This document shows positions 29,484 to 57,019 of a DNA stretch of 64,000 nucleotides, in pieces. The stretch comes from Octopus vulgaris. Lineage: Eukaryota. The translations under genes and the position numbers were made by a program. The notes under the pieces are model-generated. The model saw nothing but the letters and a program-made list of their open reading frames with translations, searched no databases and had not been told where the DNA came from. Location of the stretch: positions 98,084,001-98,148,000 of the forward strand of contig OX597816.1 of assembly GCA_951406725.2 (NCBI GenBank). The letters are read 5' to 3'. Numbering within the stretch: the stretch's first letter is position 1; each line of letters opens with the position of its first letter.

Positions 29484-31289
29484 TTGTATATAATGCAATT
29501 TTCTGCGATAGAAAATTCAACAAATAAGGTAGTCTGTCTGTTGAGAGATACATTTTAGTTTTCCAAACGAAACAATACATGGAATATGTGCTACTATTAG
29601 TTTCATATGTTGAGAAATATCTCAATCCTATTTATCAAGTACAAACCACATATCATAACGAACTAAAAAAAAACATCGTATAAGGGAATAAACGCGAAAA
29701 AACTGAAAAGGCTGCATATAGAAAACACGGAAGTTTAAAATAATACGGACAGCGAAAAACGAAAATACAAAAACTATATATTGGGGCAAATATACATGAG
29801 TTTTGTGGGTGACTGCGATACGTCCAATCCATAGTGGGAGTTTGAGAGAATTTCAAGATGAATTCCAGGTATTTGCTCTCCAATGCTTAGCGCAGGTCAC
29901 GTGGTGGTATTGCCATAAAAACGACACCAGGTATTTTATGCTCACGTCTTCGCACTGGATGATGCCTGGGACCTTGCGCACATTTGGCAGTATGTTGCCC
30001 TTTGAGTATTCATTGATATTAGCTCCTTGAAGTGGACACCACAAATGATATGTTGGAATATTTATGCCGCCCAGCAAAGCTAAGTTGTCAACTAGTGTGT
30101 GAACACATTAGCGGTACCACATGTGCTGCATACTTTGGTAGACAACATCACCTCGATGTCAGAATTATTATGAAGATTGTGCCTATTAAAGATTGTAACC
30201 TAAGACTGTTGGGCGAATTTACTTTCGCCCAACTTGATGCCGAAAAAAGTCACAGCACGTGAATGGCACCCAATAATTCTCAGTAACTATTCTCAGCACA
30301 TACAAACATACAATACTTTAAGTGCTGGAAAAGGACAAATTCTACCTCCTCGTTTTCCTTCCTCTGAAGATTCCGTGGCTTTAGAAATGACTCCTCCAAC
30401 ATCAAATGGTGTCTCATTAACTTGACCTCTCCCTTACACATCTAGGACTTGCAGTTCCCAGCTCAATCAATCACAGAATCTACACTAACTCCAACAAAAA
30501 AGAAATGTATGAACTTCAAACCACTATCAGCACACAGACCATACAAAGCCTATACTCACCCATGCACAGGGCAAGATATCTAGTCGTTTCCACCTACATA
30601 GCTCACCCTTTTTGTTTTTGAAGCCTCAGTTATAACAAATACTGTAAAGAATGTTGTCGCTAGTATGCTCGTACTCCATTGAACAATCCATGGATCACGT
30701 AACACTTCTATTATGTGCGATACCCAGTGCAAAGAACTGTTGTCGCTAAAAATGATATGCTGTAGCGTGCCGCCAAATTGGCTCAAGCAACCTATCGATG
30801 AAATTAAAATTGTATTTGTAACATGATGTGAAATAGTGCGGGGCCCAGTTGAAAACAGAAGGTTGATACAATTACTTAGAAGAAATATTAATTATACAGA
30901 TTTATACACAATTTTGCAGACTGTTACATATGTCTATACAATATTTTTTTTCAATTTAGAACAGGTGAGAAGTTAGAACTGAAATATCTTCTACCTACAG
31001 CTGCATTCGATTACGCAATGCAATAAAGTTCAGGAGCTTGTTGATCCGGTTATGCGTGTGTGTATCACGAAGTAGTACACACAAGCATTTGTATACACAC
31101 ACGCATACACACATCTGATAGCTTGACACCCCCATATATAAATACACGCACATAGACACAAGCATTTGCTGAGACACTTCACCAAGGTTACAGTTGTCTC
31201 CCATCCGTTTAAGCACTTTATTGCAATCAATTCTACATGTGCAACCGTAAATCCAAACAGGTTTTACTTTTCCATTTTCTTTCCTCATA

Positions 31290-31327
31290 TCTTTCTGTCG
31301 AAGAGTGGAAGCTTGAAATGTCAAAGA
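31290..31327 (+). ncRNA. Atypical hammerhead-like motif
   Basis: TCTTT-CTGTCGAA-GAGT ggaa GCTT-GAAAT-GTC-AAAGA. Confidence 0.45.
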
Positions 31328-31483
31328 CTTCTCCATTTCACCTTAGACTCAAATTAATTCACCTCGTTTGTTGTAGTCTCACATGTCTCTGTATTCTGTA
31401 TTTTGCTTTTTGTACTTGTGAGACCCAAATATATAGATGTATGTATGTATGTATGTATGTATGTATGTATGTATGTATTTATG

Positions 31484-31517
<34 letters not shown>

Positions 31518-31896
31518 TGTATGTATGTATGTATGTATGTATGTATGTATGTATGTATGTGTGCGTGTGTATCGTGAGTGAGGGAGCAGGATTATTATAT
31601 GAACTTGGTTATTTTCAACATTATATTAATTTGGAAAAATTGATATAGAGATGAAAAATTTATAATTTGTCATGATGTGTGGAGCAATATTTCCCCAAAT
31701 GGCATTAAATGAAAGAAAATTTATGTAATTTGACACTGAGGAGCAACGGTTGCATTGCGTCATAATATAAGCTTAATAACATTTGGGAGATGAACAGGAA
31801 TAAAATGTAGTGTAAAATACCACAGAGGACATTTACATTAATATTGGTTAAGTAACACAACGCTGAACAAACTGAAATTATATCACATATATACCC

Positions 31897-31976
<80 letters not shown>

Positions 31977-32247
31977 ACATAAACGTGTCTCTGTTTGTGC
32001 GTCTGTGCATATGTATATGTTTGCGTATGTGTTTCTGTGTCTGCGCGTGCACATATATATCAGTGTATGTATGCCGGTATGGATATAACAAAGAAACAAT
32101 TACATATTAACCTCTTCAGGTGCGCGTGATGCAAGATCAGACCAAATGAAAAAAAGCTCATAATGTTAGCAAATTTTATTAATTACCATAACAGTAAATT
32201 AGTTGATGTGTCATATTCTATCATTTCTACGAACTTAGCTGTATGTA

Positions 32248-32330
<83 letters not shown>

Positions 32331-32344
32331 AAATGTAAACAGAT

Positions 32345-32378
<34 letters not shown>

Positions 32379-33327
32379 CAGACAGGCAGGCAAATAGATA
32401 GAGAAATAGGTATACATGTATGCTTCATGTCTGACGGAGGTGTTTTCACTAATGCATAATATATGAAGAAAATTAAGTCACACAAGTTGGAGCGGTAATA
32501 TTGTCTTAAATATGAAGTAATCTCATACGCTATTATGCATGTTATATCACTAATATACCTAATATAGACATGGACTCAATATTGACTAATTCATTGTGGC
32601 ATCTGTTTTGACCTTATATTCATTATACTATCATAGCTATATATTAGCATACCCGCATCGTCAAAAATGCTAACAATTCTATTAAATATAGAAAATGGCC
32701 TATCAAGTCAATGGGAGGAATCATTGATAAATGCCAGCTGTCAAATTATGCACCTACACACAATTGAAGCACTTGAACTATCAGAGAGAGTTTTAAATTT
32801 GACGAAGTTATCACCAAGTAAAAATGTGTCGACAACTATGATTGACAGTAGCTGGTGACAAACGGATGTGTAATTCCGAAGATGTGACGATTTACGTCAT
32901 CAGATCAACCGCGGAAAGGACAGGACCCGAGGTGTAGAGCGATACCACATATGCTGCGGAGCCACTTCACAAGCGACTATCCAAAATAACTGCATCTACA
33001 CAAATACACATTTCTTCGACTGTATCCGTCTGAAGATAGGCCTCTTCACCCGAAATAAGGAAGGTATATTATACTTTCATGTCTGCATACATGAAAGCAT
33101 TCTTCATTTATAGTTTCATTGATTGTTCTACTTCTGTATTATAAGGATACGTGTGAAGTACCACATACTTCAGGTATTATAGCAGACAGTTCACATATAA
33201 TGGAGTTTAATGAAATATATCACACTGCACAACCTACTGAAAGCAAATGCGGTAAAGAGAAATATATCTACAGTTTTTCGAATGGTGACGTTATTTGTGC
33301 GTGTTCTGTGTGCGTATACACACACAG

Positions 33328-33359
<32 letters not shown>

Positions 33360-33530
33360 ACACACACACGCACACACACACATATATATATATAGAGAGA
33401 GAGATTGAGATAAATATGGTACTTAAGCTAAGGCACCAGAATTTAGTCCGATATTGTCCATAAAATTTCAAAAAACGTGATTAAATTCAAAATAAGCAAT
33501 AAGAATATCCAGAGGTAATACAGAGGTAAT

Positions 33531-34388
33531 ACAGAAGCTACTAAGGTATTAAGAAGATATACATTGTTAAATACTCGGCCTGTCACTGATGTATTTTGTT
33601 TCTTATAGGGTCTGTTTTAATTTATAGTCTAGGTTATCAAATCCTTGTATATCTAAGGCTGAGAGAACAAAGGGGCAGTATCTTTTGGGCGTAGGGCTGA
33701 GAGAGCAGATAGAAATCATAGCTGTTATTGTCACAAAAATCAAGATTTATTAGAAGCAATATCATGAGGTTTGGTAAAGGAAAACTTAAAACAAGATGTT
33801 AACTGACAATTAAGGGGGTTGCCCACTAGCAGACCATTGATAATGAAACGGGGGAAGTCTTATCATGTAGTACTATAGTTAAATAGTTTAAGCAATGTTA
33901 CTATATTGTATACAGTTAAAGTTTAGGGTTATTCAGAGGATTATTAAAAACAATATTTTAACAAAAGAATAGAAATTTATGAATACTTTTGAGTATATAC
34001 CTAACTTTTACCATAATAGAGGGAGGAAAAGGAATTATCCAGAATTAGTTTAATATCTATACATATTTTACAATCAGATGATATCTGTGAATATTGATTA
34101 ATTGGTATATACTGGTATTAATAAAGGAGTATTGAGGTAAAAGAACATGCTAATTATATTAATATATAATTAATGATATATATGCTAATATATATACATA
34201 TATGATTTCTTTCTGCTTCCTCAGCCCTACCCCTAACAGATACTGCTCCTTTGTTCTCTCAGCGTTAGATATACAAGGATTTGAGAAACTAGTCTATAAA
34301 TTTAAGCTGACCCCATAAAAAACAAAAAATTAGTGACAGGCAGAGTCTGTAACAATGTATATATTCTTGATACCTTAGTAGCTTCTGT
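33531..34388. repeat. Long imperfect inverted repeat (arms 33531-33720 and 34201-34388)
   Basis: acagaagctactaaggtat…caaatccttgtatatctaaggctgagagaacaaagg…gaaatcata is mirrored by tatgatttc…cctttgttctctcagcgttagatatacaaggatttg…ataccttagtagcttctgt. Confidence 0.88.
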
Positions 34389-34684
34389 GCTTCTCTTCTC
34401 TCTTCATCACATCACAATACACCACCCACACATACATACATACACACGTCCAGACCACCAGCCCTCTTTCACACGCACATACATACTCTCTTATATACAC
34501 ACGCACCATCGTGTGGGGGCCACCTTCGTTTTGGAAGTCACTTGACCCTGTTATCTCCCCTACTATCCCTCTAGCGTCTAAAGTCTGACCTCTGACCTCT
34601 GATCACTGCCTGAAGTCAGAACGCCATGATAGATCGTTAGCTCCTACACGTATTTTTTTTCTCTCCTTGTTTCTTTTCTGTGTA

Positions 34685-34722
34685 TCTTTCTGTCGAAGAG
34701 CTTAGGCTCGAAACGTAAAAGA
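34685..34722 (+). ncRNA. Atypical minimal hammerhead-like motif
   Basis: TCTTT-CTGTCGAA-GAGC ttag GCTC-GAAAC-GTA-AAAGA; stems I and II are perfect and stem III is a loopless palindromic ACGT. Confidence 0.55.
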
Positions 34723-34827
34723 CTTGTTCTATTTCTATTCCTGAGCGTCATACAAATACATTTGTTTGTTTGTTACTCCACCTGCCTTCGTCTTTTGTTT
34801 ATTTTCGTAAACCTTCCCGTTATATAT

Positions 34828-34898
<71 letters not shown>

Positions 34899-34899
<1 letters not shown>

Positions 34900-35050
34900 C
34901 GGAGTAAACACATAAATGTGAAACAAGGTGGAAAAAAGAGTACTCAAATACCAGTGGTAGAGTAATATGCTTTATTTTAAGCAGCAGAAAATTCAACAAA
35001 ATCTGTTACTCTGAGTTTCTCGTTGCCGTTCATCAGACAGTTTTTGCTAG
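34899..35050 (-). mobile_element. PLE-type terminal repeat in (TA)n
   Basis: Same family as 27510-27708; carries a hammerhead and is flanked by TA runs. Confidence 0.75.
35003..35040 (-). ncRNA. Minimal hammerhead ribozyme motif
   Basis: Minus strand: CTGT-CTGATGA-ACG gcaa CGA-GAAAC-tcaga-GTA-ACAG. Confidence 0.78.
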
Positions 35051-35371: not shown

Positions 35372-35433
<62 letters not shown>

Positions 35434-35526
35434 CACACAGACACATATTTATATATGTATATATACATATGCGTGTGAGCGTATGTGTGTGTGTGCGCGT
35501 GTGTGTGTGTGTGCGTGTGTGTGTGC

Positions 35527-35575
<49 letters not shown>

Positions 35576-35910: not shown

Positions 35911-36069
35911 CATTCTTCAGCTTCAGTCAGAGGAGAATAGGGAGTTTATATAAATTTTCGGTAGGCTTTCCGTAGTTGTTGAAGGAAAGGAAGAATATAG
36001 CCAGAGTTCATTGTATTACACGCTACATCGAAGTATCCTACATCTGGAATACTTGCAGATTGTATTGTT

Positions 36070-37090
36070 AGTAGAGTGAAGTATCATATCTACTACTCGT
36101 AGTATCATAAAAATGAAAATGTTTAGAAGTAATAGCATCTATAAGAACATAAATTATTGCAGGTTAAATGTAATTTAATCTTATGTGGCAGGAGACTGTG
36201 ACTAGAGAGATGAAATAAGTGAATTTGGCGACGGTGCGTTTAATATCATCTAAAGCAAAGTCTTAAACAAATGGTGGAGATTAATATGATTTAAGTAAGA
36301 TAGAATGTAATTTTAACTAAAGTATCATAACATTAGTGAGGTATGACGTTCCATCCATTAATTTAACATACCATTCAAAAGGTTAACATGTAATATCTTA
36401 TTAACAAAACACTGCCTGCCATGATGTGTAATATCCTGTAAAGCAAATATAATAACACTGAATAATATGGTGTAGGATATCATCTAAGGAAATATATCTA
36501 TGAATAGAGAGATCTGTAATAAAATCTAAATATCATAACAATGAAGAGTTGGTATGTAAATTGACATGACAAAGCGTTGGGGACGCAATATCATCTCTAT
36601 ATCTTTGAAACTGATGTAAATCTTTCAGTGTATTATTTAAATTAAATGCTTTCAAAAGTGCCTGACATTAATATAATTTAGGTCTGACGTAGCATTAGCG
36701 AAGTTGAGATCTAATATCTGTTAAAATATCGTGGCATTTTATACTAAGATGTAATAACATTGACAACATAATATTGAAGAATGTGAAATATAATATCAAA
36801 TAAAATGATATGACATTGACGTTTGTGTGGTATGATATATATATATACAGTGTTATTATTCAATGAAGCTGCGATGAAATATGTTTAATCAACATAACAC
36901 TGAGAAAAGAATATAATATTACCGTGAGTGTTACGCATTAAATTATCGAGTAGTTCTTAAAGTAGAGTGAAATGTATCCTTATTTAAAACAACAAAGAAG
37001 GTAAGTACATTGAAATACATTATCTACATAAAACTAGAAAATGGGTAATGATTTAATAACATAACTAGTGACGTTCTAAATATAAATTCT
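36070..37090 (+). repeat. Degenerate tandem array, unit about 41 nt (core GAGATGTAATATCAT)
   Basis: Recurrent variants such as aatgtaattttaactaaagtatcataac, catgtaatatctt, gtttaatatcatctaaagc, gagatctaatatct and aagatgtaataacat at roughly 40-nt spacing. Confidence 0.7.
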
Positions 37091-37295
37091 TGGGATTAAG
37101 TTTTAGTATAATCTAAATTAACGTATTCTATGCCAACAAAATTTCGATATTGTATAAATTGTGGTGTGGTGATAAAAAATCTACCAACCATCGTTTCCCC
37201 AGTTTGAGGATAGGGGAATGGCCTGTAGGTGAGCTGTGAATACTCAGGAATTAGACCAGACAAAATCATGGGTAGCCCTTTGGCAAGGCATAGCA

Positions 37296-37680
37296 CCTGT
37301 TAGGACCACTTGCAGTGAAGAAATTGTGTCGCAATGTTCTTATGTGATGTGATCTCGACTTTTGTAGAGGAGGTATTGCACAGGGACCAAGTGTTCGGTG
37401 AATAGTAAACATAATGCTAATATCCTTTGGATAATATTGGTGGTATATTTTCCACATTGTGCAAATAATGTATCGCTCAGGGCGGCGTTGCAGAGAATAG
37501 AGCTTCAGCTGCTTGAGTCGACCCCAATAATCAAGTCACATCATACCATTTATTATTTTTTGTGTGTTTGATTGATCCTTGTGACGCTTCAATCCTCATT
37601 ATGTCTTTTTTTTTTTGTAGGGGGACCACAATGAGCAGCAGTATTCGAGGTGGGGCTTAGCGAATGTGGAGAAGAGAAGG
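37296..37680 (-). mobile_element. CR1-like LINE, 3' ORF2 fragment
   Basis: Minus strand reads LFSTFAKPHLEYCCSLWSP…DYWGRLKQLKLYSLQRRPERYII…WKIYHQ. Confidence 0.8.
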
Positions 37681-37880
37681 ATGTTAATGATATGATTTTT
37701 TTTAAATCTACCTCATTAACTGGTTGTTATATTATTATTGTTATTTCTCTTCAGAACAGGTTTGAACATTTTAACAAATCACTTTTCTTTTATATTTCTT
37801 CCAACATCACTTGTGTCATGTAGCTTGTGGAAAATATTTCTGACCACATGCTTCTATATGTTTGCTCAATTTGGCGAACA

Positions 37881-38510
37881 TTACTGTTCCGGATTAGTTG
37901 TTTGTGAACTTGTGAGCGTTCCGGTAATGCATTCCCTGTCTCGACAATATATAGCTCCTCGCAATTCGGGCATACGATTATTTCGAATTATGTTGATGAT
38001 GATGAAAATGTCTTGATAATGCGGATTGTGTGTTACTAGAAATGGTATTGTGTTCCGTTGATGGGTTCTTGTCTCTTGTCTTGCCCTAAGTTGTTCTATA
38101 GGTATCCCTTTTGCTCGTTGTATGCTATTTTCTATAATTAGGCGATGATAATTTTGCATGAGCAGAAATCCTTTGAGTTCCGTAAGTCGTATGTTCCTGG
38201 TATTTGGATCATGTAATATAGTACACATTTTCCTAGTCAGGCAGTACGGTATATTGCATTTTGTGTGTGCTGGGTGAATTTGAAATTTAGGTACTGGTAT
38301 GTATAAATAAGTTTTGAAATAAATATTGGTTGTGATTGTGGATCTAGTTTTAGTTATGTCAAAAAATGGTAATTGTGTGTTTTTCATTTCTCTTGTGAAT
38401 TTGAGACTAGGGTGTAGATTGTTGAGGAGCGTGCTGAATTCTTCCTGATAAAGAAATTGAGAACTACGGCATGAACTTTGGAAAATATATAGAATTAACA
38501 TGGAAAACAT
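37881..38510 (-). mobile_element. Penelope-like element RT thumb fragment
   Basis: LNNLHPSLKFTREMKNTQLPFFDI…HPAHTKCNIPYCLTRKMCTI…IPFLVTHNP. Confidence 0.88.
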
Positions 38511-38511
38511 A

Positions 38512-39280
38512 ATTCGATGATTGTTTCCTAATTTGAACCAAATCCCTATAAAATCTGGGAAATTTCACCACTCAACTACCATTTCTTGACTTAATCGTAA
38601 GAATCAACAATGCCACAATCAAATCTGATACATATTACAAAAGCACAGATAAACAGCAGTAACTAAATTTCAAATCGTTCCACCCATCACACAAAACACA
38701 GCATCCCGTACTGTCTAGCCAGGAAAAATTGCACTATAATAGATTATCTAAATACCAGGAACATACGACTTAGGGAACTCAAAGAATTTCTGCTCAAGTA
38801 AAACTACTCTCACCTACTTATTGAAAACAGCATACAACGAACAAAAGAGATACCCATAGAACAACTTAGGGCAACACGAGAAACACGAACCCATCTACGG
38901 AACACAATATCATTCCAAGTTTCACATAATCAGCATCACCAAAACATTATGAACATCATCAAAATAAATTTGCCAAACATGAAACAAAGTGAAAAATTAG
39001 AAAACATAAGAACTAATCAAATACTTATCTTAAGCAAAAGGCAAGCACATAACATAAACAAACTATTAACAACGGCAAAATTCAACAGGAGCAAACATGA
39101 TAAAACATTCGCAGTATAAAAGTGTAACGATAATAGATGTGGAACGTGTCAATACATGCATACTTGTAGATGCATTAGAACAAAAATAGGCAGATATTCG
39201 CAAATATATGAAGTGCAAATGTAGAAATTTTATCTACTGAATTAAATACGAACTTTGAGGAACTATATATTGACGAGTCT
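38512..39280 (+). mobile_element. Penelope-like element fragment (Neptune-like), head-to-head with the previous copy
   Basis: FDDCFLI, QLPFLDL, YYKSTD, HPSH, SIPYCLAR and KEIPIEQLRA, then a linker zinc finger KCNDNRCGTCQYM. Confidence 0.85.
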
Positions 39281-39289
39281 ACAGACAGC

Positions 39290-39741
39290 AATGGTGGTTC
39301 TGAGATGATCGAATGTGTTGGAACCATAAACTCTGAAAAATACATCAAAATACTGAAGCAAAGATGACATAGTGAAAGCTGAGTTTTTATTCATGGCAGA
39401 TAGGAATCAACAATGGCTGACTGAAAATGGGATCAAAAAGCTTCCTTTGCCGAGCCAATGTCCTGATACAAACCCAATTGAAAAGCTTAAACCTAAATCT
39501 GAAGATGAATTGTTTCGATTGTTGCGTGAAAAGTGGGCAGAAATTCCACAAAAGACAATCACAAAGCTCATCTTTTCTATGCCGAAATGAGTTTCAGAAT
39601 TAAAATCTGCGAAGTGAATGTCTACTAAATACTAAAGTATGTAGTCATACCTATCGATTGCATTTGAATTGTTCGCTTTGCGTATTAAATAAAAGATTTT
39701 GAAAATTAACGGTGTCTATTTACTTCCTGCATATCTGTGTA
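39290..39741 (+). mobile_element. Tc1-like transposon, 3' fragment
   Basis: GTINSEKYIKIL; LPSQCPDTNPIEKL (compare WPSQSPDLNPIE); ends STKY*; probable TIR ending …ctgtg-TA. Confidence 0.8.
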
Positions 39742-39844
39742 TATACATATATGTATTCATGTATGTATGCATAAAGTGAAAGAGAGAGAGAGAAAGATTA
39801 AGAGAGAGAAGGATTGAGAGAGAGAGAAATATATATAATAATTC

Positions 39845-42800
39845 AACATGTAATGTGTAACGTAATAGAATATATAATGTCGCATAACTTAATTTGGCCT
39901 GTTATGTAATATTACAAAAATAGTTAACAGAGCGGCATATAAAATATAAAATGTAATTTCGTACAAATTAGAGGAGTAATCTAGGAAGTTAAGATAAAAT
40001 ATCTGGAAGTTGCAATTTATAACCACTGAAGCTCACATGAAAGTGAAGATTCCGTTATAATATGCAATATTCTATCATGTTATGAAACATACTTTGTAGA
40101 GAGTTTGATATAACAATCAGACACAACATTGAAATATCGCCTAATTTAATTTGGTCATATATAGAGTTGCACAGATACACAAGCACGCGCACGCAAACAC
40201 ACAAATACACGCACAACGCACACACACGCGCGCAACACGCACACAAATGTATATGTATAAGATATATTTATATCAGGTAACATTAAATAAACATTTTAGA
40301 TGTGATATCATTTTAAATCCCATAAATTTGAAGTTGTCAGTTATTATTAGGCAAAATAAGGGGAAAATGAATTGAGTGGGAATTATCGTAAACTTCAGAA
40401 ATATATACGTTCGTGAAATTTGTATAGAACAACATAACATTATTATATGAAGTAATAAAAAATCAAAGTTTAGGAGTAAAAGAAACAGAAATTATGCTTA
40501 CGCTGAGGTGTCTATGATGAAAGACATGCAAATATGAATAATTGTAGTCGTAAACTTGTTACATGCAATATTATCTAAAAGTGGACTGTTATGTTTTTTA
40601 AAGTAACATATCAGTGCGGGTGTCAATTGCAGAAGGTGTTGATTCAAAGGAGATTATTATAACGTCAATAGAAGATGCATAAGTATTGTGTGAAAAATTA
40701 ATAAAACATTCTGGGATGTGTCATATATAATATGAGCATTTAGAGAAAATTGAAACAACGACACAAAATAACATTTTTATGAAGCAGCATTATTTTAGGT
40801 AAGAACATTATGACTAACATAAAACTTGAAGATTATTAGTTCTAACATCATCTACAATGTATAACGAATATGATATAAATTAGCGTCACAATACTCGGAA
40901 GCGCTTAGTATATACATTATAATAACAGTGTAACAAAGAGTGTAAAATATACAATCATATATACAATATAGTATTGATAAGGGTGATGGCTGTTCGTCAT
41001 CTAAAGTAATACATTACTGGTGTGAGAATTGCGAGTAAGTGAATTAAAATTAAAGCAAAAAGTTACGGCAGTTGTATTTTAATTTTAGAGAGTATGAGAC
41101 GGAGGCAGAACGGCTATATAAAATAGGTATATATTACTAACTTGTGGACGAAAATGCTTAATATTATTTATGATTTATTCTGTCAGTGGATTTTGAGGTT
41201 GGTAACGTTGAATGTATTCCAACCTGTGAGATGAAGTTACATCAAGTTACACATGCGATGATTTTGTCCAAATTAGAAAACAACGTTTGGAGATGATGCG
41301 AGAGAGTAATATATGTTTGGTCATAACGTGTAGGAGGTTAAATAAAATGATGTTTGTTAATTTTATATTAAATAACGGGGCAGAGAATTTCTTGTTGAGT
41401 AATGTCGTAAAAGTATATAAAAAAAAATAAGTCTAAGACTTTAGGAACTTACACCATACTATTACATCAGGAAAGTTACATTACATTTAATATAATATAA
41501 ATGTAAAGAAAGTTAGATGTAATATCGTCTACGAGAATACACTGTTTCCTAAAACGTAGAACATAAAATCGTCTACAGTAATACGAGCGTAAGGTGTAAC
41601 ATATTATCTCATATAAATTTACTATGAAACTAAAGAATTAATCGCGTACAACTATATACCGAAGCATTGAAACCGGTTTGCAAAATAATATTTGAGTAAT
41701 TGATTTTGCGTAGAAAGGCTATATTTTCTACAATGAATTATATTAAACGCTATCAAAATTAACACTAGAAGCATAATACCAGGCAGAGTATGTAGTAATC
41801 GCTTATAGGGTGGATAAAAATAATGAAACTGATTCATATATATCATACAATGATATACAGGGTGATATTTACTCTCACCCAATGTCACTTAATATTAAAG
41901 ACGGAGTGATAAAACAAATCTAATGAAACATAGATTTCAATGATGTAGGATGAAATAGCTTCTAAATAGCATCACACAAAGAGTGTTAGTTGAATATTAT
42001 ATCAGAAACAACTTGTATGACATGGCAATGTGCAATCAGCAAACATTATATACTGGGTGAGGCACATAATCATTTCATGTAATATAAAATAGTGTTAGAT
42101 GTAATATGATCAAACCACCAAGCGCATAAAGAAGGTGAAATGCAATGTCATTAAATAATCTACGATCAGCTGTAATGTGAACGAATGTAACGTAATATTG
42201 TTAACGCACAGCTATAACATGGAGTAGAGAAATATATCACTGAGTGAAATGTATTATCATGAAATTTAACACAATGTTGAAGAGATTTATATCATTTAAA
42301 GTAACATTAAACAGAGAGGTCACATGTAATGCAGTGTTAGAGAACATGACACTTAGGTGAAAGAGATGTCATACAATCTACATTTATACACTTTAGAAGA
42401 GAAATTGTAATATTATCTATAGGCATAATCTCTCAGAGGGTTTTGAGATTAATATCATTTAGGAAATATTATTATTGAAGATCATGAGATGTAATATTGC
42501 ATAAAGTATGTTAGAACTAGCAAATGGAATGTGATATCTAAAGTATCACACGTATGGGTAGGGTGTGATCTATTGTCACTTAATGTACTATAATATTGTG
42601 TAGACCAAGATGAAATAACATCCGTAATAACTTAAAGGTCAGGTATAATATTTGGTAAAGGAACATAAAAGTGAAAATGTTAGAGTATCACACAAAGAAA
42701 TTCAGCTGTTATGGACTTCGGATAAATATATCAATAAAAGCAATACAGCATACACTATACAATTCATCATCTAAAATCTTGGACAACGTATAATAAAATA

Positions 42801-44443
42801 ACAGTCGCTATAAATGCTAGGATTTTGAATTCAGGATAAGGTCTTTTGGTTATCTCACATGCATACTAGATTAACGAAGTGTAAGATTCCTGCCAAGAAA
42901 ATACATTAAAAGGGAATCCTCAGTACTAATTGTCTTCTTCGAAGTCAGAAAAATATTTCAAGTTAAATTACGGTGGTGTTTCTACACAGATGAATATAGA
43001 CTTGTCTTACAATGGAGTACAGATTTCGCATGAACACGATAATTCTGTTACACGCTTACGCAGCTTGACTTCACCCAAAAGAGTGATATAGATACATCGA
43101 ATATACACTACGGCACGTTCTGGTTCAACGATATGTTGCGTTAGCTCTTTGACTATTCTTATCTCTATAAACACATCGTCCGCAATTCGGTATATCCGAC
43201 AAACACAGCTGACATCCCTCTCTGACAGATACATATCTCTAAGGATTCTATCTCAGAAACAAAAATAAGCCTGTTTCCATGTGTATCATTTATTTGAAGT
43301 ATCGGGCCCGGATCAAATTTTTGGCCTTTAAAATGTCAATTTAAGGGATTTTCAAGTTAAGAATTGGCTCTATCTAATTACCTGCTCTCATAGGCTTGGT
43401 GAAGAAACATATCATAAGAGATATGCAATCACGTAATGCATTAATGTAAAACAAGATCGCGTGAAATGAATAGCATAACATTGTGGAGAATAGACCTAGA
43501 ACCATCTAAATTAATACAGTACTGTAAGTAAGGTGATATGTAATCAGCTACTGTATGAAAATATGAAGGAATATCAGGTGTTATACTATGTAATAGATGG
43601 ATAAGTGAGGATAGTGAGCGGAAGTAAGATATAAAATGGTAGCAAGTTGTAACAGTGAGCCGTAGGAAACGTGATATCATTACGTCTATTATTTTGTGGG
43701 AGGGTGATACATTGAAACAATCGTTAAATTGGCTGCAAAACCGTCTTTTGGTATTACGGTCTGTTTTCAAATATAACTTATGTCATCTCCCCGCGCTCAT
43801 CGGTCTAGGGTTAATAAAAGAAGGTACTAGAGTCGGTGATATCAACGATCTTCGAAGACTCTTGAGTGTCCATGATTAAATGACACTCACCCAATGTATC
43901 AATAAATGACACGCATTACGGTGACTCTATTCTGCTTGAGAATACTTGGCAAATTTTGTAAGCCTTTGTCTTGCTCGAGCATTTAGAATAGCTATCATCG
44001 AAACTAACAGAGATTTATCTTGCTATATGAAGAGGAATTAAATGGGATGCACTTTTAAGTCATATTATATGAAAGTGAAGAATGATGGATTAAACTGAAG
44101 CGAATAGCTATATCTGTGAAGATGTAATATCAGGAAACTGAAGAAGTACGGCAGCATGTAATATAACCAAGGTGAGCATAAATGAGCGAAGTTGAATAAA
44201 AAATTAGATAAAGCTTCACAGATTATGCGAATCAGCGCAAATGCTTAAACAAAACGGAGTAACATGGTGTCAATATCATGTAAATTATTATAGCAAAAAA
44301 ATGGAAATATGAGACGTAATATCATAGATAAGTTCACACAAATTTACGGATTTACTTGTAATATAAGTGGAGAAGGGTGAAGTATAATACTATTCAATAG
44401 GTGACGCAACTTTAACAAGGCATGGAGAAAGGAGAGGTAAGTG

Positions 44444-44514
<71 letters not shown>

Positions 44515-44900
44515 TACTTATATAATGTTGGGTAGAGTCAAATAGGATATAATTTTAAAGAGTTCATACATAAGTAACGTGAAGAACACTGAGATTAATA
44601 TCAATCAAAACAGCATAAAGTTATGGAAAGTCCGATGTGTTAGCTAATACTGTGTATTACTGGGTAGCTGAAATATATAGTAATTTTATATAGTACTGAA
44701 TTAGGTATTGTGTTATATCATAGAAATTTACACAGGTATGTGTATGTACGATGCGTGATATGATGTCACTTGGGGTATCAATATAAAGCACAAAATTAAT
44801 ATATATATACGTGGATCGAAATCGTGGTGAGATACAAAATTACCTAATCTAACTAGATAATGTTCCAACGATAAATGAAAATAATCTAGTGACATAAAAT
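39845..44900 (+). repeat. Degenerate tandem array, unit about 41 nt, main block (locally interrupted)
   Basis: Unit starts are readable at about 42246, 42282, 42321, 42363, 42402, 42445, 42486, 42526, 42566 and 42607. Confidence 0.75.
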
Positions 44901-44950
44901 TGATGCTTTTAATATCTCTTTCTTTCTGTTTCTCTGTTTGTCTGCCTGTC

Positions 44951-46574: not shown

Positions 46575-49102
46575 TACATTGTAACCTATAAGTGATACTT
46601 GGAAGAGGTAACATATGAAGTAACTTGACTCTAATGTTATTCGTTTGATTCTGACTAATCCAACACCTTTATTTGCAAGAGTTAATATCATATATCTGCA
46701 ACATTCTGTTGTATCACAGATTCATTAAATCGGCAATGGGAAACCTCTCCATTTCTTCCTTCTCTCTTTCTTTCTCGCTCTCTCACTTCTCTCTCCTCCT
46801 TTACTCTCAGCGAAGTGTGGTTGCAAAATACCCCATGCCCTTTAGAGTTATTAGTTGTTATAAATTCTTTCTAGGTTACGGATCAAGGTGGTTTATTTTT
46901 CGCTTTCATACTCCACAATATATCGTCTCATGGAGATGAACTCATCCTCCATTTGACCCTGGCCTACCACACCGTAGCGCAAACCTCGAACAACCTAGAA
47001 AGCAAATATTGTAGCTGATATCATGACCTAATTCCAGGACAATATACCCAAATGGGATTATGGGAAATTAGTCTCCTTCGACTGCATATGTTTATAGTCT
47101 GTACGCATATCACGAAATGTATTTTTATGTTCATAACTCAAAAACATGAATACACTGTTGAAACATTCAGCTAACAACAATTATTACGCCTTATCATAAA
47201 CTGAGGATCACTCTTGGAGAGTGTACATTTTGAACACGAAAACCGTCTTTCTTTGCAGTCAGAAGTTTCAGTCCTCATCAAGTATTAATTTCTGAAAGCA
47301 GACTGAATAACCACAACGATACTCTCTCCATGGCCGAGTCAGAGCAACAAGAACTCTCACGAGCATCCTAGAACGTAGCCAAAGAAAGGATACATGAGTA
47401 GCATAAACTCGCTCATTGGCTCACTCAAACCACTGCCTCCGGATTTGACGTTTACAAGAGCTGTTTTTTCCTGGTGCTGCAACAAAAGTTTCTGTCTATT
47501 GAATAGTATCATGCCATATTCAATCAGGTATTACTGACTCGTGAATATTCAATTGTCCCACATATTCTGTCCTACTCTAATCAAGTTAATATTATTGCAG
47601 TTTCCTCAACAAAGACCATTCAGTGACAAGATTTGTTTCCTTGTACATGATTTCCCCAAGCTGTAGAATTACAATTTTTCTTAACAGTATCAATCTCAGC
47701 AGTGTAATATATATAGTTGGACTATTAGGTAGCTACAAAGACAATATAAAACTGATGCTTATAAAAGTAACATCCATCTAGAATAACATAACGGAACATT
47801 AATAACATGTATATAAACTATACCGTCACAAATAGGTTTACGTCTCAAGAAAATAAAAGGCTCTTGCTTTCCTATATGAGTCCACTTTGTCTAAAAAGGG
47901 TAGCAAGAAGTTACTTGCGGTATCTATCTTTCATATGGCTGCTGTTCAGTTCTATAAACATCTAATGATTTACTTACTGGATATTTACAAACGATCCCCT
48001 CTCATAAATTGGGAATTTACAGAAGAATGCGATACTGGTAACGGAATATACAAGCGAATATAAGTTCTATAGATCTACAATGACTTAATGAAATCACACA
48101 AAGCAATAAATTTACGAATAATGGGACCTACAATTTCTGCATTTTCTGAAACAGCACGCCAAACCTGAACATTTACATCTGTAAATGAGAAATTATTGCA
48201 ATTATATGAAATTTTCAATCATCCATCCAGAGTGTTCTGAATCTTAATCCATAAAAATCAATAGGCTAACAGTGGAATTGTCTACAGATGAGGGCACGCT
48301 CAGATCTGCTGCAGAGTAATACAACAAAAGTATAAACCAAACATAGCTTCTTCAAATTAATATAATACGTCCCAAACATTAATAATTCAAAGATAAAATA
48401 CGACAACAAAGAACAGTGTTATAATATTGTGTTTTATCCAGCGGAAAATATCAGGCTAGTCATTTTTTCAATTCACTACAAGTACCTTGCAATGTCTTAT
48501 TGCACTGCCAGGTGTACGGAATACATTTTGATCCGATATACATTACACACAAATTTCCGTTTTTATTTCCACTAGATTAAATACACTGTGACGAACTACA
48601 GCCAACTATATTATATATTGTAAATTCTATTGAGATAAAAAAAGATAACAGAAAAACAAACAACTTACCTCAATTCCGATTGATCCGAGAATCCATTCAA
48701 GTAACACGTTGTCGCTATATTCCGTATTGTTTACAATACCAATGCTACATTAGAGTCAAATCCCATTAGTATATTGTAATCCACTTCGCTACCTATTAGG
48801 CCACTTTTATTCATTTTAATCCGTTTTGCTTTATTTTATCTTCACCTTTGTGAACCAATCTCAGTTATAATTCAATATTTTTAGACTACTATTTTACAAG
48901 ATTTTAAGTGAATTTATACTTTTATAACGTTGTTTCATATATATTTATAAGAATGTGTGTGTATGTATGTATGTATACATATATATGTATGTATATATAT
49001 TTGTATAAATATACACATATATTTGTATATATATATACAAATATACATATATATACATGCATACGTGTATATATGTTTGTATATATACATACATACATAC
49101 AT

Positions 49103-49201
<99 letters not shown>

Positions 49202-50208: not shown

Positions 50209-52533
50209 AAAATATTACAATATATATTAAGCGTTAGTGTCTCTACTTGCTCGTGCAATATATATATCATGCATATGAAATACACACACACATACACATC
50301 GGCAAACACACACACGCATACACTCACACACATTCAGACCAACACACACACACGCACACACATACACATTCTAACTTAGCAATCACGCTTCAAGACCGTA
50401 GTATGCAGTAATATAACCTAGAAGTAATATCCACTTGATGTAATATCCATATAAAGTCCGTGAATACCGATATTTATGATGCTTAATATTATCTAAATAA
50501 ATAACCTATGAATCTTGCGTGCCAGACACTTTTATCTTCAGTAAATTAACCTTGGTATTGATGAGATTTAATATCATATAAACTAACACAGCACCACTGT
50601 TTATCACATATTCAATATACTTTAGCTTTTCTTCAAAGTAAACATGATTCGGTATAAAATTTTTAACTGACATAAGTCATTCAAACTTTCCAAGTTCGTA
50701 GAACTTCTCGTCTTCCCTGGTACTTCTTCATTTAATCTTTATTGCAGGCAAATTATGGGTTCCAGGCAGATACAAAAGACTGTAATTAAGTTCTTAACGT
50801 ATGGGGTGGGATCAAGTTGTTGTACATCTAGAGAGCACGACAAGGTGTTTGCAACAATGGCACTTTTAACAAGAGCAGTGTGCCTAGATAGAGGATAAAA
50901 TTTAGAAAGGGGAAACTAGCATTAAAGTTAAACTATGCAGTGAGGAACTATCCACCTCGGCTACTGACAAGTCGCGAGCCACGTGTTCCAAGCACAGCTA
51001 GACTACAGCAGCAATCTAATGTCTAATGCAGAAGATGGCAGAAGCATTTAGGTATCGGAAAATGTGTGCAAAGAGATATCTCAGTAATAAACATCTAATG
51101 TGAAGGGGAGAATGTTAAAAATTTACTTTACTCTGCTGGAAGCCTTGAAAGCCAATGTAGAAACGTTTTTCATACATGTGTATGGATAAAACGTGCACAT
51201 ATCTTTATTAACTGAAAACGAATTTACAATGCATGGATTTGCGTCACGTCACTTCTCCAAGGTCTAAGAAGTTCGGTAGTTTGTGATGTGTACAAAAAGG
51301 CATTATGACTAGGGTTTTTTACGACTAGGTTATCATTCTCCTTGATTTTCAGGAATAAACAGAGATTGGTATGTTCAGACACCGCAAAAATCTGACAGAG
51401 GTGATTAGGAGGAAGAAACCGAAAAGCTGGTAAATTGGATTGCTTAGTGGTTCTCATCCACTGTTGATCTTAGATTTGGTACTCTTTTGCTTCTGCCTCT
51501 CCTATCCAATAAATCATAGTCTTCGACACAATGTGAGATAGAAATTAAGAAATCGGTTGTGAAACAGTGGGAACAAATGGTGCACACCTGAATCGAAAAG
51601 GGTTTGAGCGTAGGGTTCACTTAGTTTGGAAATATATCGCATATTTTGGAAGCTGTATTGTGAAGTAACTTTGTAGGGAAGTGTTACTCTACATGTGCAA
51701 TTTCAACGATGTCAGTTAACAAAAAATTATGTCTCCTCCCACTTTTGTATTTAGTTCGGGACATCACTTGAATAAAATATCCCAAAACAGGCGTGTGGTT
51801 GTTGCAAAATCATCGATAGCAACCTTATATCTACGTCTGTAAGATGTAAATTAATTAAGCTAATGTAACACCGATTGTGCTGTTTCAAAAACTAGGACTC
51901 ACATACTTTTAGTGTGTATACAGCTTCCTAACAGCTGATTTATACGTCGTACACTGGTAATGATAGTGTCTGGTCAGGAAACGCTGCGCACAAACGTGGT
52001 TACATAGCGTTTCCCTTGTAAGAAAATATATAAAAACACAACTCCGTATGATATCGTATTCAAAGTAAACATTTTGATGTAAACAAGACAAGAATTTCAA
52101 AAGGAACTTTGCACCAAAATATTTTATTACTCAGTTCGTGTGTAGCAGGAAAATACAAATGCACTAAAAGCTGATTGTCTACTATCCGGGCAAGGAGGAA
52201 ACAGTAACAAATCAAGCTTCACAAGCAAGTCTAGAAATATAAGCACTACAAGTTATAAAACGTCAAATGTAAAAAGATGCCGGAACTTACCCTAATCGAA
52301 AACGTACATTTTCTCTTTAAAATTGTGTGAAATATATTTCGTAAAACGTCAACTAAGTCTTCCTGGTTATTAATATCATTCTGTTTAATATAGAAAAATT
52401 GAAAGACATTTGACATTTATGATAGCTAACTGAGACACACACACACACACATGCACATATGTGTGTGTGTGTGTATCTATCTATCTATATATATGCGTAT
52501 ATATGTTTATATGAATATATATATTATATAAAT

Positions 52534-52619
<86 letters not shown>

Positions 52620-53064
52620 TGTTATTGTTGCTGTTAGCAATAAGTTTGTAAGAAGATAGTAAACTCTCCGTTAATATTGTTTTCGACCATATTTATTACA
52701 TTGTAATATTTTTAACATAGTGTGGCATTTTCTGATCTTTAAATGAAGAAATAAATATATTTCATATTATGTATCGGAATTGGAGCCATTCTCTACATTG
52801 TACCAACAAAATATACATCTCAACGCATACGCACTTTAAACTTCCAATAACTATGTGGAGTGTGTAATGTAATACATGTAATATTATCTAACACTGATTT
52901 TTCTGACATGTAATATCATATAAGGAAATATCTTATTATTATGAGTCATATAATGTGGTGTTTGTGATATATACTTCACTCACACACGTAGACAAACAGT
53001 CACACACACATGCATGCACATGATGTATGTATGCATATATATATATATATATATATACGTTATA

Positions 53065-53340
53065 TAATTAGGGCTCAGTAAAATAATTTACTTTACCACA
53101 CACTGAAACTTATAGAAATAGCAGCCAAAAATTTTTCTTAGCCATTTCTTCTACTATAAGAAAAATCTCCCATACAGTGTTTACTCAAAAATAATTCACG
53201 TAGATATGGAGGGTAAAATAACAAAATATCACATGTACAAAGATCATTTCAGAACGTTACGTTTCTGGATTAGTTGAATTTGAAACTCAACATTTCCTTC
53301 GTCAGCTCAACATTTCTTAATAGGTGTCTTTCGACTGAGA
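53065..53340 (-). mobile_element. Hammerhead-bearing repeat (PLE-terminus-like); related segment at about 60644-60780
   Basis: aattagggct(c/t)agtaaaata…tagaaatagcagccaa is shared with about 60644-60710, and both copies follow TA-rich runs. Confidence 0.6.
53249..53309 (-). ncRNA. Type I hammerhead ribozyme motif
   Basis: Minus strand: TGAG-CTGACGA-aGGA aat GTTGAG…TTCAAC taa TCCa-GAAACG taa CGTT-CTGA. Stem I is weak. Confidence 0.6.
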
Positions 53341-54492
53341 ACGAATCAAGTTGAGCTGACATGTATGAAGTGAAAGCCTAAGGGCTGGAACACGGGAGAT
53401 GGACATAAGAGGTGTTCGCAGTCGGCAGTCAGGCCAAGTAAGAAAGATCATAGCTGGCCGGACACCGGTCACGTGGAAGGAAGAGACAGGTTTGCGCCGC
53501 GGGATTCAAGGATTAAAAATAACAGAGATAAAGGGAAAGTTACAGGGGAGATAAATGATAAATATATTTCCAAACCCATTCTTTCGGTCCTTTGTACATG
53601 CAGTTAAGTAGATTTCATTAAACTGTCAAGCCATTCTTGTATCCTACATCGTCGGTTCAGAGATCTCAGTTGGTCATAAATCTCTTAGTCTGTAAACCGC
53701 ATACATATATCACCATAAACTTATATACACGCAGATATGCACATTCACATACACACACAGATGCATATACATACACACACACACACATATACACATGCAC
53801 ACGTACTAGCAGATTCGCCAAATCCCACGATATGCATATACTTTTGTCCTAAATACATGTATTCAGAGATTTATGAATACTTGTCAATATATCTATACAA
53901 ATACATACATTTATTCATATCGTTTTATTTTGGGATGATCAATTTTTTTTGTTTTTGCCAAATAAACACAGTCACTATACATTTGTTCTTCACTCGTTTA
54001 TTAAAGTCCTTATTTTTTCTTTTCTTTTTTTATTCTAACTCATGTCAATTGTCCGGAAATCTTTCGTCACACATCTGTGACCACTTCAGCGACACTTTTC
54101 GTTTTCGTGTGTGCTCTTGCTCCAATTACTCCATTCTGTTCTTCTTCTAAGATGTGTATCATTAAGTGCGCATGCGTTTGCGTCTTTGTTTATGTGTGTG
54201 TGTGTGTGGATGTATGTGTATGTGTTTGTGTATGATTGTGTGTATATCACTGTTCTTAGCGGCGATATGAACTTCCACTCAGCTCCATCCTGTCGCCACA
54301 TTGTGCTACTGCTGTCCTGTGATCCAAAAATTTGGTACAGTTCCTATATCTCTCTGTTGTTGTGTGTTCGTCCACGGTATTGCCATATATATTGTTGTGG
54401 CTGTGAGTCCTTGTGGCTCATACTTCTAGCAATACTGATGCTGAATAACGTTCTCATTTGCTTTAATGACGTTTGTATACACATACATACAA

Positions 54493-54579
<87 letters not shown>

Positions 54580-55649
54580 CCCACACATAGATACAGATGC
54601 CCACATATAGTACACATACACATATATTAACCAAACACATGCATTAACATATACCCGAGTATACACAAATATAGAAAGGTACATATAGGTACATACACCC
54701 AAATATATATACAGGTTTATGTGTATGTACTCATCCATGCTTCTATCAGGTTTTATTCGAACATAGCTATACGTTCCGATGAGGTTATTCCACAGGGCGC
54801 CTTAGGACGAACTAGGCAATTTGATGAAACAATAAAACAGTGAAACAACACCACAAGCAGCAATATTAATACCGTATTAAATTCATGTACTTAGTGTACG
54901 TGCTAATCAACAGGTTCGTTCATGAATATTGATTCTAAGAGCAGTCCATAGTTATATGTTTGTTTGTAGATCGTTAATAGTTTTATTACTGGTATTGCTT
55001 GTCTACAGGGGCTGATAGAATAAATGTTTTATCGTGAAACATAAAATGCATGAAAAGCCTCGTGACTAATATAGCGGTATCCTTTATTGTTCAGCGTAGG
55101 TGGTGGTTTTGTGTTCATCACTTCACGTGGTATATGCAAGGACAGACAAAAGTTTACATATGACCGTGAACGAACAGCTATCATACGATGTAATATCTTC
55201 GTGAAGTATCTCAGTGGGCTTATACGTAACGTGTTTCTCGGGGGTAAGATATGATTCGTTATCAAGAAATCTAGACAATGTGTAAATGGTAATTAGGTGT
55301 GAGATGATACTACATTGTGATTATTATAATGGGCAAATATGCATTTTCTGGCGTGCAAACATTTTACTATGCTTTCTGAGAGTTGATTAATGATCCGGTC
55401 TCTTTTCAACACAGTGTAGGGTAATTCCTCTGAGCACAGTCCGCACTTCCAAGAAACGGCATTGTATGGTAGTGCGTGCTTCGTGGTGGACCAACACAGG
55501 CCATATTGTATCTTATTGGATTTGAATTACTACCGAAAGTCCGTCAATGATGTTATGTGTCTCTTGTTGAATGTTTTGAAGCTAGAAATGTGGTTGCGGT
55601 ATCGATTTTTGAATGAATCAGCCGTTGCGCCAACGTACACGTACATGCC

Positions 55650-56160
55650 TCCTCTTGTGTGCACAATACCTTTATATACAATCTTACAGCTCACGCAGAA
55701 TTTATTCAAGTGACATCGTGTTTTAACTCTGCATGAGCACTTTTTCTAGCTGTTGTCCTCGGTTCTCATCACAGTTCCTGTTGCGTTTACATCACAGTTC
55801 CATATACTATTACGAAGTGGCCTTATCGAGTTATTTACGATTTGGTTGCCAGTATTTGTGGTGTTGTAACTACTATGTCCTATGTATTGTCCTACACCAG
55901 AGCTGATCGAACAAGCACTGGATATTCTTTCTTTGGTTAATGGTTCACTGGCGGGGATGGCTAAAACGCAGTTGAATTTTGTATTGTTAATCTGGTGTAT
56001 ATGTTGCTTTAAATTACAAACATTGGGATATAGCCCCTTTACAGCGTCTGTTAAATATCGTGTAGCACCTATTTGATTTGGGGAATCATCTATCTAAATC
56101 TACGGAAAACTCGTTGGCGATTCTTGATGAAACGTGTGTCCCAGGGATCGGATTATAGCA
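55650..56160 (-). mobile_element. Highly decayed Naiad-like Penelope fragment
   Basis: Minus-strand remnants FPKSNRCYTIFNR, YIG, SIW, LNK and CAHKR occur in the same order as in the element at 59288-60257. Confidence 0.45.
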
Positions 56161-57019
56161 GATGACGGTGTATTATTTATATTTCTTGTTTGGTTTATTG
56201 GTTCTAGTCGAGGTATTGCTGTTATGTATTGCGTAGTGTGTTGTACTTAAATTACGGTTGAATTACATCACGTGACTAGACGTTTCTGCACCTGACAGAT
56301 TCACCACGACTAGCTGCATAAATTCCTACCGACAGGACGTGTCGAAAGGATAGATGTGAGCAATAAGCTTTCCCATGTATTCCATCTTTAATCTCCTCTC
56401 TCTCAACACATCAAATATAAAATTCTTCCCTGAAGACGGAGGTCATTATTATCCGAGGATACTCTTGCATATATATTTATATCAATATATGTACCATATA
56501 TATCTGCGTGCGTGTATGTCTGTGTTTGTGCATTTGCAATAATATACCGAAGAAAGACGCTTGAGATCCAGAATATATGAATTACAAGCTTATTCTTAGT
56601 GCTTCGGAAATGTGCATTTATCACAAACTGACAATGTCATTTGAAAATGCAATATCTATATTAATTTATCAGTAATATATGTTCGAAATATTACTTTCTA
56701 AACTAATCTTAATAGTTAAACTAATCTTAACAATAATCTTAACGTGAAATTAATTGTAACAATATATCAGTGATGTTACCTTACCAATGCTGTGTTACCG
56801 AAAGAAAAAAAAAAGATTTTTATGACATCTGATACCCTTATACTTGAAATTAATGCTAATGGATGTGGATGCAACATTAATGATGACTGTGCGCTGCAAT
56901 ACATACAAAAATAAATGATTGTGATATATGCGAAACGTAATATTCTCTAGTTAATGCAAAGTTTTCCTTTGTGATAGAAAATCTCTAAACTTAAGCAGCT
57001 CTTTTATTTTTGAATCGTA

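What the first reader, a model, noticed from the sequence alone, without database searches (positions are those of the whole stretch)
30800..57000. Cryptic, strand-uniform tandem array (unit about 41 nt) forming the background of about 25 kb
Seen: stretches that look unique between the transposons are periodic. Consecutive units start at about 42246, 42282, 42321, 42363, 42402, 42445, 42486, 42526, 42566 and 42607 (spacing 36-43 nt). The eyeballed consensus is about GAGATGTAATATCATCTAAAGTAACATAACACTGAAGAGGTT, best conserved in the first 15 nt. The same core recurs in the same orientation at 36070-37090, 39845-44900, 46680, 50400-50600, 52860-52940, 55185 and 56640-56950, and more weakly near 31700-32560. 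Inference: a very old array predating all the insertions. It could be a fossil satellite, a periodic protein- or RNA-binding scaffold such as a repeat lncRNA or small-RNA precursor, or a relic of a repeat-coding exon. One minus-strand frame of my consensus is open (LQCYVTLDDITS..).
Basis: partly seen in the sequence, partly recalled or inferred. Interest (0 to 1): 0.75.

Follow-up and report, generated by a model that had tools for sequence, protein, structure and literature searches.

The report
Fossil 42-base minisatellite in octopus DNA
About 135 worn, head-to-tail copies of a 42-letter DNA unit lie on one strand, scattered over 43 kb by later insertions; this is likely a very old, decaying repeat, although one half of each unit changes more slowly than the other, which hints at weak, untested selection.

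Summary
The array is real but smaller than claimed. A cyclic HMM trained on 39.8-44.4 kb scores the held-out 36.05-37.1 kb block at +156 bits, against -7±2 for shuffles. The unit is 42 nt, about 65% identical to consensus, and lies on the + strand only. It covers about 5.0 kb (19%) of 30.8-57 kb and continues to 74.3 kb, beyond the window. No other copy was found in this genome.

Units form a star phylogeny and decay strand-symmetrically with AT bias (about 0.49 substitutions per site). There is no codon signal, stem covariation, RNA fold or Rfam match. The best reading is a fossil minisatellite that predates its insertions (0.65).

The first half of the unit is better conserved, mostly because six tail positions carry two alleles. 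Against a relative, however, it also changed less (6/214 versus 18/251, p≈0.04), so weak selection on a bZIP-like core remains possible (0.2).

An unbiased scan of 1.26 Mb found a second cryptic array, so such fossils recur here. The scan earlier reported younger TF-site satellites on other DNA of this genome (e1-8662736, e1-8669500).

The parts
31721..31890 (+). Leftmost array remnant, about 4 units
   Evidence: Posterior segment 18.5 bits; tile above all 1710 null tiles
32177..32247 (+). Weak array remnant
   Evidence: 5.0 bits; tile 4.5 bits versus null max 2.5
36068..37047 (+). Continuous array block of about 23 units; single-copy ortholog in relative 'organism E'
   Evidence: Held-out +156 bits; one E contig covers 36009-37304 with 99 substitutions; 29 in 36300-36840
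37128..39800 (.). Stack of high-copy repeat fragments interrupting the array (Penelope-like and Tc1-like by recalled motifs, not by a database hit)
   Evidence: Contig depth of hundreds to thousands versus about 15 in the array; best matches to other copies 67-71%
39818..41658 (+). Patchy array blocks (39818-40132, 40241-40449, 40479-40625, 40696-41029, 41453-41658); register resumes at unit position 11 to 12 across a 152-nt CA-rich insertion
   Evidence: 1 of 14 gaps keeps phase exactly
41835..42752 (+).
   Evidence: 234 bits; units aligned
43418..44909 (+). Array blocks 43418-43709, 44036-44417 and 44505-44909, split by a (TA)33 run and other inserts
   Evidence: 49, 36 and 51 bits
46227..46319 (+). 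Array remnant, about 2 units
47739..47792 (+). Weak array remnant
   Evidence: 6.8 bits; tile 4.4 bits
50437..50594 (+). Array remnant
   Evidence: 18.9 bits
51790..51871 (+).
   Evidence: 10.0 bits
52847..52952 (+). Array remnant
   Evidence: 26.5 bits
56871..56988 (+). Last remnant inside the window; about 14 more units lie beyond the window end at L012:8734-9151 and L013:108-302 (+ strand)
   Evidence: 7.3 bits; beyond the window 28, 8, 9 and 40 bits

Best explanation
This is a single-locus array of about 135 degenerate 42-nt units on one strand, likely a fossil minisatellite with no present function. Inferred history: (1) a TAAYA-like pentamer run gave rise to a 42-nt higher-order unit; (2) slippage or unequal crossing-over amplified it to at least 5.5 kb, with a few two-allele sites in the purine-rich tail; (3) homogenisation stopped and each unit then decayed independently by AT-biased point mutation and small deletions; (4) transposons and microsatellites inserted and spread the remnants over 43 kb. 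The uniform strand follows simply from one head-to-tail origin. Shown: unit, extent, star-like divergence, decay spectrum, interruption by less diverged repeats. Inferred: origin, amplification mechanism, lack of function.
For: Star phylogeny: pairwise identity SD 0.0777 versus 0.0778 after column permutation, and no neighbour effect at lags 1-7. Substitution matrix is strand-symmetric and AT-biased, with equilibrium GC 0.29 and about 0.49 substitutions per site. G/C bases in the core are no better kept than in the tail (0.465 versus 0.449). No subset of units is protected: core-identity SD 0.105 versus 0.107 permuted, and all 49 gap-free cores differ, best 15/16. Six A/T tail or boundary positions have a second allele above 0.23; on top-two-allele share the core-tail contrast is not significant (0.873 versus 0.834, p=0.18), and without them it is 0.752 versus 0.699 (p=0.095). 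Relative E carries 4 nt after 36401 and 7 nt after 36215 that restore unit register, so this lineage likely lost core-overlapping bases. The consensus has a pentamer sub-period (p=0.003). A second cryptic, strand-uniform, interrupted array was found by an unbiased scan at C1:50.067-50.071 Mb.
Against: Against relative E the core changed less than the tail: 6/214 versus 18/251 (Fisher p=0.037); p=0.035-0.04 with context-specific rates; recent changes fall at positions that are also variable in the long term (p=0.017). The block 36300-36840 is less diverged (29/541, 5.4%) than the rest of the same contig (70/755, 9.3%; p=0.011), though not than 39843-40210 (23/368; p=0.56). Neutral simulation from one consensus with trinucleotide rates gives an A/T core-tail contrast of -0.02±0.02 versus +0.124 observed, reproducible in 4 of 4 disjoint sets. 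These tests rest on 24 placed substitutions (5 of 29 were not listed) and no genome-wide neutral baseline was available.
Confidence: 0.65

Rival explanations
1. The array would be a homotypic cluster of low-affinity protein-binding sites (bZIP-like AYGTAAY half-site, or an AT-rich binder) in a gene-poor region. Weak selection spread over many units would slow change in the core without fixing any single copy.
For: Core 2.8% versus tail 7.2% against E; long-term contrast exceeds the neutral simulation. AYGTAAY occurs 27 times forward versus 6 reverse in the array segments (expected from the consensus itself). Two other arrays in this genome have GATGT(A/C)A-type cores that are better kept than their tails. 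The bZIP Xrp1/Irbp18 reporter site in PMC8933008 (passages) contains ATGATGTAAT.
Against: The core is not an ideal site: TGATGYAAY 0 and TTAYGTAAY 2 forward matches (motif definitions recalled). The central G6 (0.53) and C13 (0.50) decay like any G/C. Deletions hit the core. Core similarity to the C1 array is marginal (p=0.04-0.47 over 5 models), and the C4 array was found by a core-derived pattern at chance frequency (4 hits versus 4 controls). No cellular exon was recognised within ±300 kb (partial scan).
Confidence: 0.2
2. The array would be transcribed from one strand as a repeat lncRNA or small-RNA (tapiR-like) precursor, with the core as the functional RNA motif.
For: Single locus, head-to-tail, one strand, core more conserved than the remainder, as in the Aedes tapiR locus (bioRxiv 10.1101/2020.01.15.907428, passages). 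The core is an imperfect palindrome (positions 2-6 against 13-17).
Against: No covariation in the palindrome: 158 paired cells versus 169 expected, 11 compensatory versus 16.6. Fold z-scores -0.14 and +0.26. No Rfam match at gathering score; the 51 weak hits lie on microsatellites. No two cores are identical, so no common guide sequence. Fragmented over 43 kb.
Confidence: 0.07
3. The array would be the internal or subterminal tandem tract of an extinct Helitron/MITE or foldback-type element that later expanded, as is common in molluscs.
For: Bivalve satellite arrays often sit inside Helitrons (PMC8268682, passages). The unrelated C4 14-nt array has nested inverted arms.
Against: No dispersed copies: DNA search finds only self; 0 matches for two consensus patterns; dimer pattern at control level; no tile above 6.4 bits outside the array in 664 kb of local DNA or above 4.5 bits in 600 kb of random DNA. 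No convincing inverted arm. Element ends were not identified.
Confidence: 0.05
4. The array would be a pseudogenised exon that encoded a 14-residue repeat on the minus strand.
For: 42 nt equals 14 codons, and 1 of 6 frames of the consensus ring is open.
Against: No codon-phase difference (p=0.73 and 0.88); 50 of 71 units are frame-shifting and 5 of 12 ungapped units have stops. One open frame of six in a 14-codon AT-rich ring is unremarkable (inference). No match of the 22-nt consensus pattern in viral, metagenome or prokaryote collections.
Confidence: 0.03

Closest known systems
Degenerate (ancient) minisatellites and euchromatic satellite arrays; 'ancient and almost imperceptible' tandem repeats (PMC12418385, passages)
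   Same: Head-to-tail units of 10-60 nt, microsatellite-derived substructure, variant sites in part of the unit, missed by TRF and autocorrelation
   Different: At the limit of detectability (51% pairwise), no ongoing homogenisation, dispersed over 43 kb by insertions
Aedes aegypti tapiR1/2 satellite locus (bioRxiv 10.1101/2020.01.15.907428, passages)
   Same: Single locus, very old, monomers diverged, with one part more conserved
   Different: tapiR locus is a compact 3.5-kb array of 20 units whose piRNA parts are far more conserved and expressed; here the core is only 74% versus 61% conserved, no two cores match, and expression is untested
Homotypic TF-site arrays carried by repeats: Helitron heat-shock elements in Caenorhabditis (PMC6927752, abstract and outline); octopus TF-site satellites noted by this scan (e1-8662736, e1-8669500, unchecked AI notes)
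   Same: Tandem units with a TF-like core better kept than the rest
   Different: Those are described as dispersed, with near-ideal sites; this is single-locus, heavily decayed and not an ideal site
Helitron-associated satellite arrays of bivalves (PMC8268682, passages)
   Same: Mollusc, short euchromatic array
   Different: No flanking boxes identified and no dispersed copies found

Membership tests
Minisatellite / tandem array | Head-to-tail units of 10-60 nt above chance | tested here: met
   42-nt unit, held-out +156 bits versus -7±2; about 22 consecutive units at 41835-42752
Minisatellite / tandem array | Non-coding | tested here: met
   No codon phase, frequent frameshifts and stops
Active satellite DNA family | Concerted evolution (similar neighbours, subfamilies) | tested here: not met
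   Star phylogeny, no lag effect
Active satellite DNA family | High copy number or multiple loci | tested here: not met
   equally old arrays elsewhere could be missed because no genome-wide profile search was done
tapiR-like satellite piRNA locus | Near-invariant 25-30 nt part of the monomer | tested here: not met
   49 of 49 cores distinct; modal identity 11-13 of 16
tapiR-like satellite piRNA locus | Abundant small RNA from one strand | not testable with these tools
   No small-RNA data could be laid
Structured repeat lncRNA (Xist/roX-like; recalled) | Conserved stem with covariation or stable fold | tested here: not met
Homotypic TF-site array | Core under purifying selection | tested here: inconclusive
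   6/214 versus 18/251, p≈0.04; G/C anchors not protected; biallelic tail explains most of the long-term contrast
Homotypic TF-site array | Units match a known site closely | tested here: not met
   TGATGYAAY 0 and TTAYGTAAY 2 forward (motifs recalled)
Homotypic TF-site array | Protein occupancy or enhancer activity | not testable with these tools
   Needs ATAC, ChIP or a reporter assay
Helitron/MITE internal array | Conserved terminal boxes and dispersed copies | tested here: inconclusive
   No dispersed copies; termini not searched with a Helitron library

The most novel reading that the evidence does not exclude
Octopus intergenic DNA hides a layer of very old, cryptic tandem arrays of bZIP-like sites. 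In this one, perhaps ten times older than the split from relative E, the core is still under weak selection spread over more than 100 non-identical units: a repeat that turned into a degenerate regulatory or chromatin-binding platform invisible to repeat finders and to alignment-based conservation scores.
Probability: 0.2. Interest if true: 0.7.

Novelty: new member of a known kind. Interest (0 to 1): 0.33.

Why it matters
As a fossil, it shows that part of the 'unique' DNA in this genome is unrecognised ancient tandem repeat (a second case turned up in 1.26 Mb). About 135 independently decayed copies also give a built-in record of the long-term mutation spectrum. If the core constraint holds up, it would make a standing question testable: whether old satellites are domesticated as low-affinity protein-binding platforms under distributed selection.

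Tried and rejected
Plain autocorrelation and TRF miss the array. A k-mer harmonic detector also missed it. A direct-versus-inverted 8-mer detector ranked array tiles 2, 6 and 13 of 464; the follow-up on the top 24 tiles recovered the array in only 1 of its 3 tiles, so the frequency of cryptic arrays is a lower bound.

MAFFT alignment of overlapping trimers was unusable. Model R1 was built but a genome-wide profile search of G000 remains undone; only DNA stretches and short patterns were searched.

RNA: no RNA holder listed among 24 runs. Two guessed-RNA contig sets showed no depth on the main array blocks, X23 having depth only at 37.1-40.5 kb, where high-copy repeats lie. This is no evidence either way. 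Organism E contigs barely cover 40.5-44.4 kb; with no joint across it shown and an index share of 0.10 that fits presence at about 7% divergence, this hole was not used.

A link to the C4 14-nt array (42=3x14) was rejected: it was selected by the pattern, hits were at control level, and its model does not score the window's array. The C1 array does not cross-score either.

Neighbouring genes: Pfam on 139 of 283 ORFs of 90 aa or more within ±100 kb (part of the list was cut from view) and 113 ORFs, mostly from the top of 4029 ranked unique-region ORFs within ±300 kb, gave transposon domains, one isolated C2H2 finger, one DUF7083 hit and sub-threshold hits. A 505-aa ORF at -221 kb ends in a CCHC knuckle and looks like a LINE ORF1 (recalled motif, no Pfam hit). 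Short exons may be missed.

Literature: searches listed no paper describing this array; only listings were seen for most, and no supplements were read.
Full report
SETTING. The window is G000:C3:98,084,001-98,148,000 of a 2.8-Gb, 227-contig genome. Earlier notes of this scan call it an octopus genome; I did not test that further. No cellular exon was recognised within ±300 kb in partial Pfam scans (139 of 283 long ORFs; 113 further ORFs), so the region is likely a gene desert or a large intron.

IS IT REAL? Plain autocorrelation and TRF do not show it (150 of 222 TRF rows shown). I then trained a cyclic profile HMM. A 41-state model needed an insertion in 78% of units at one place, so the unit is 42 nt. 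Trained on 39840-44440 only, it scores the held-out block 36050-37110 at +155.9 bits; 100 dinucleotide shuffles give -7.0±2.4, and three models trained on shuffled DNA give -6.3 to -0.6.

EXTENT. Array sequence is 5017 of 26201 nt in 30800-57000, plus about 575 nt at 72.7-74.3 kb, beyond the window: roughly 135 unit equivalents over 43 kb. The 67 near-full units average 65% identity to consensus. Among 4425 tiles over 664 kb, strong signal is confined to 31.7-74.3 kb on the + strand; the best reverse tile is 6.4 bits. Six random 100-kb blocks reach at most 4.5 bits. In the whole genome, the 601-nt core block matches only itself, two consensus patterns have 0 matches, and a dimer pattern gives 4 hits versus 4 controls. 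The 22-nt pattern has 0 matches in viral, metagenome and prokaryote collections. An equally old array elsewhere could escape these searches.

HOW IT EVOLVED. Pairwise identity between 71 units averages 51%; its spread and maximum match column-permuted data, and neighbours are no more alike. The consensus-to-unit matrix is strand-symmetric and AT-biased (A 0.70, T 0.75, C 0.47, G 0.51 retained), giving about 0.49 substitutions per site and equilibrium GC 0.29. The consensus has a 5-nt sub-period (p=0.003), which suggests a microsatellite origin (inference). Interrupting repeats match other copies at 60-100%, median 85%, consistent with later insertion. A single-copy ortholog in coded organism E differs at 99 of about 1296 sites, about 4% per lineage, so the array is up to about 12 times older than that split. 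This is an upper bound because ancestral variant sites inflate the distance. For scale, PMC9795677 (passages) dates two octopod genera at 44 Ma and octopus-squid at 220 Ma, so an age above 100 My is plausible but inferred.

CODING AND RNA. The core palindrome shows no covariation, the two best blocks fold like shuffles, and the 51 Rfam hits lie on microsatellites below gathering score. Expression could not be tested.

CORE VERSUS TAIL. A/T positions 1-19 are retained at 0.75 versus 0.63 for positions 20-42 (p=0.003), while G/C positions do not differ (0.465 versus 0.449). The contrast appears in 4 of 4 disjoint unit sets. It exceeds 25 simulations of uniform decay with trinucleotide rates taken from 32 repeat segments (-0.02±0.02, best-window maximum 0.069). 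Most of it comes from six positions with a common second allele (20, 31, 32, 35, 36, 39); on top-two-allele share p=0.18, and without those positions p=0.095. Ancestral variant units would explain this without selection.

THE INDEPENDENT TEST. In 36300-36840, two E samples each show 29 substitutions, of which the same 24 are listed. The block is less diverged than the rest of the contig (5.4% versus 9.3%, p=0.011) but not than 39843-40210 (6.2%, p=0.56). Against selection: E retains bases that restore register at two places overlapping the core, no unit subset is protected, all 49 gap-free cores differ, and ideal bZIP sites are nearly absent. I rate this as a hint, not a finding: small n, one block, no neutral baseline, and higher-order context or slippage in the purine tail not modelled.

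IS IT UNUSUAL? An unbiased, insensitive scan of 464 tiles from 1.26 Mb found a second cryptic, strand-uniform, interrupted array at C1:50.067-50.071 Mb, with held-out scores of 51-135 bits forward and mostly near 0 reverse over 18 periods tried, and a CRE-like core. It does not cross-score with this one, and core similarity is marginal (p=0.04-0.47). Ancient tandem repeats that evade standard tools are a recognised class (PMC12418385, passages). The scan's earlier notes describe octopus satellites that spell TF sites (e1-8662736, e1-8669500); they prompted my motif test, which this array does not pass as an ideal site.

VERDICT. A real and well-spotted but smaller array; most likely a fossil minisatellite (0.65), with weak distributed selection on the core as the live alternative (0.2). 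New member of a known kind; interest 0.33. Papers seen: passages of 10.1101/2020.01.15.907428, PMC8268682, PMC8933008, PMC9795677 and PMC12418385; abstract and outline of PMC6927752; search listings only for the rest. No supplements were read.

Noticed in passing
L080-L081; G000:C1:50,067,200-50,070,950: Second cryptic, strand-uniform degenerate array (sub-period about 21-23, higher order about 65) with a CRE-like TGAYGTCA core, interrupted by a probable mariner-type insertion and a local duplication.
   Followed up: partly
L022:1220-3051 and L031; G000:C4:129,577,176-129,579,282: Single-locus 14-nt array with a TGATGTAAC core and variable tail, folded into nested inverted duplications with arms of up to 344 nt at 90-96% complementarity.
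   Followed up: partly
L025; G000:C26:21,674,273: Young array of a fixed 10-nt spacer (matching the start of this array's core) alternating with variable-length CA microsatellite.
   Followed up: no
L085-L086; C2:100,016,788-100,020,651: Possible decayed pentamer array (TGTAC-like), held-out 15-19 bits.
   Followed up: no
window 37304 and 38948: In organism E a single-copy contig joins 37304 to 38948 on the opposite strand, suggesting an inversion or different repeat arrangement inside the insertion stack.
   Followed up: no
L041:9022 to L042:536 (221 kb left of the window start, minus strand): Intact 505-aa ORF with a Thr/Asn-rich N-terminus and a C-terminal CCHC knuckle, likely a LINE ORF1; no Pfam hit.
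   Followed up: partly
window 60000-64000: Long dinucleotide-periodic simple-repeat tract with extreme GC skew of 0.6-0.7 at 61-63 kb.
   Followed up: no
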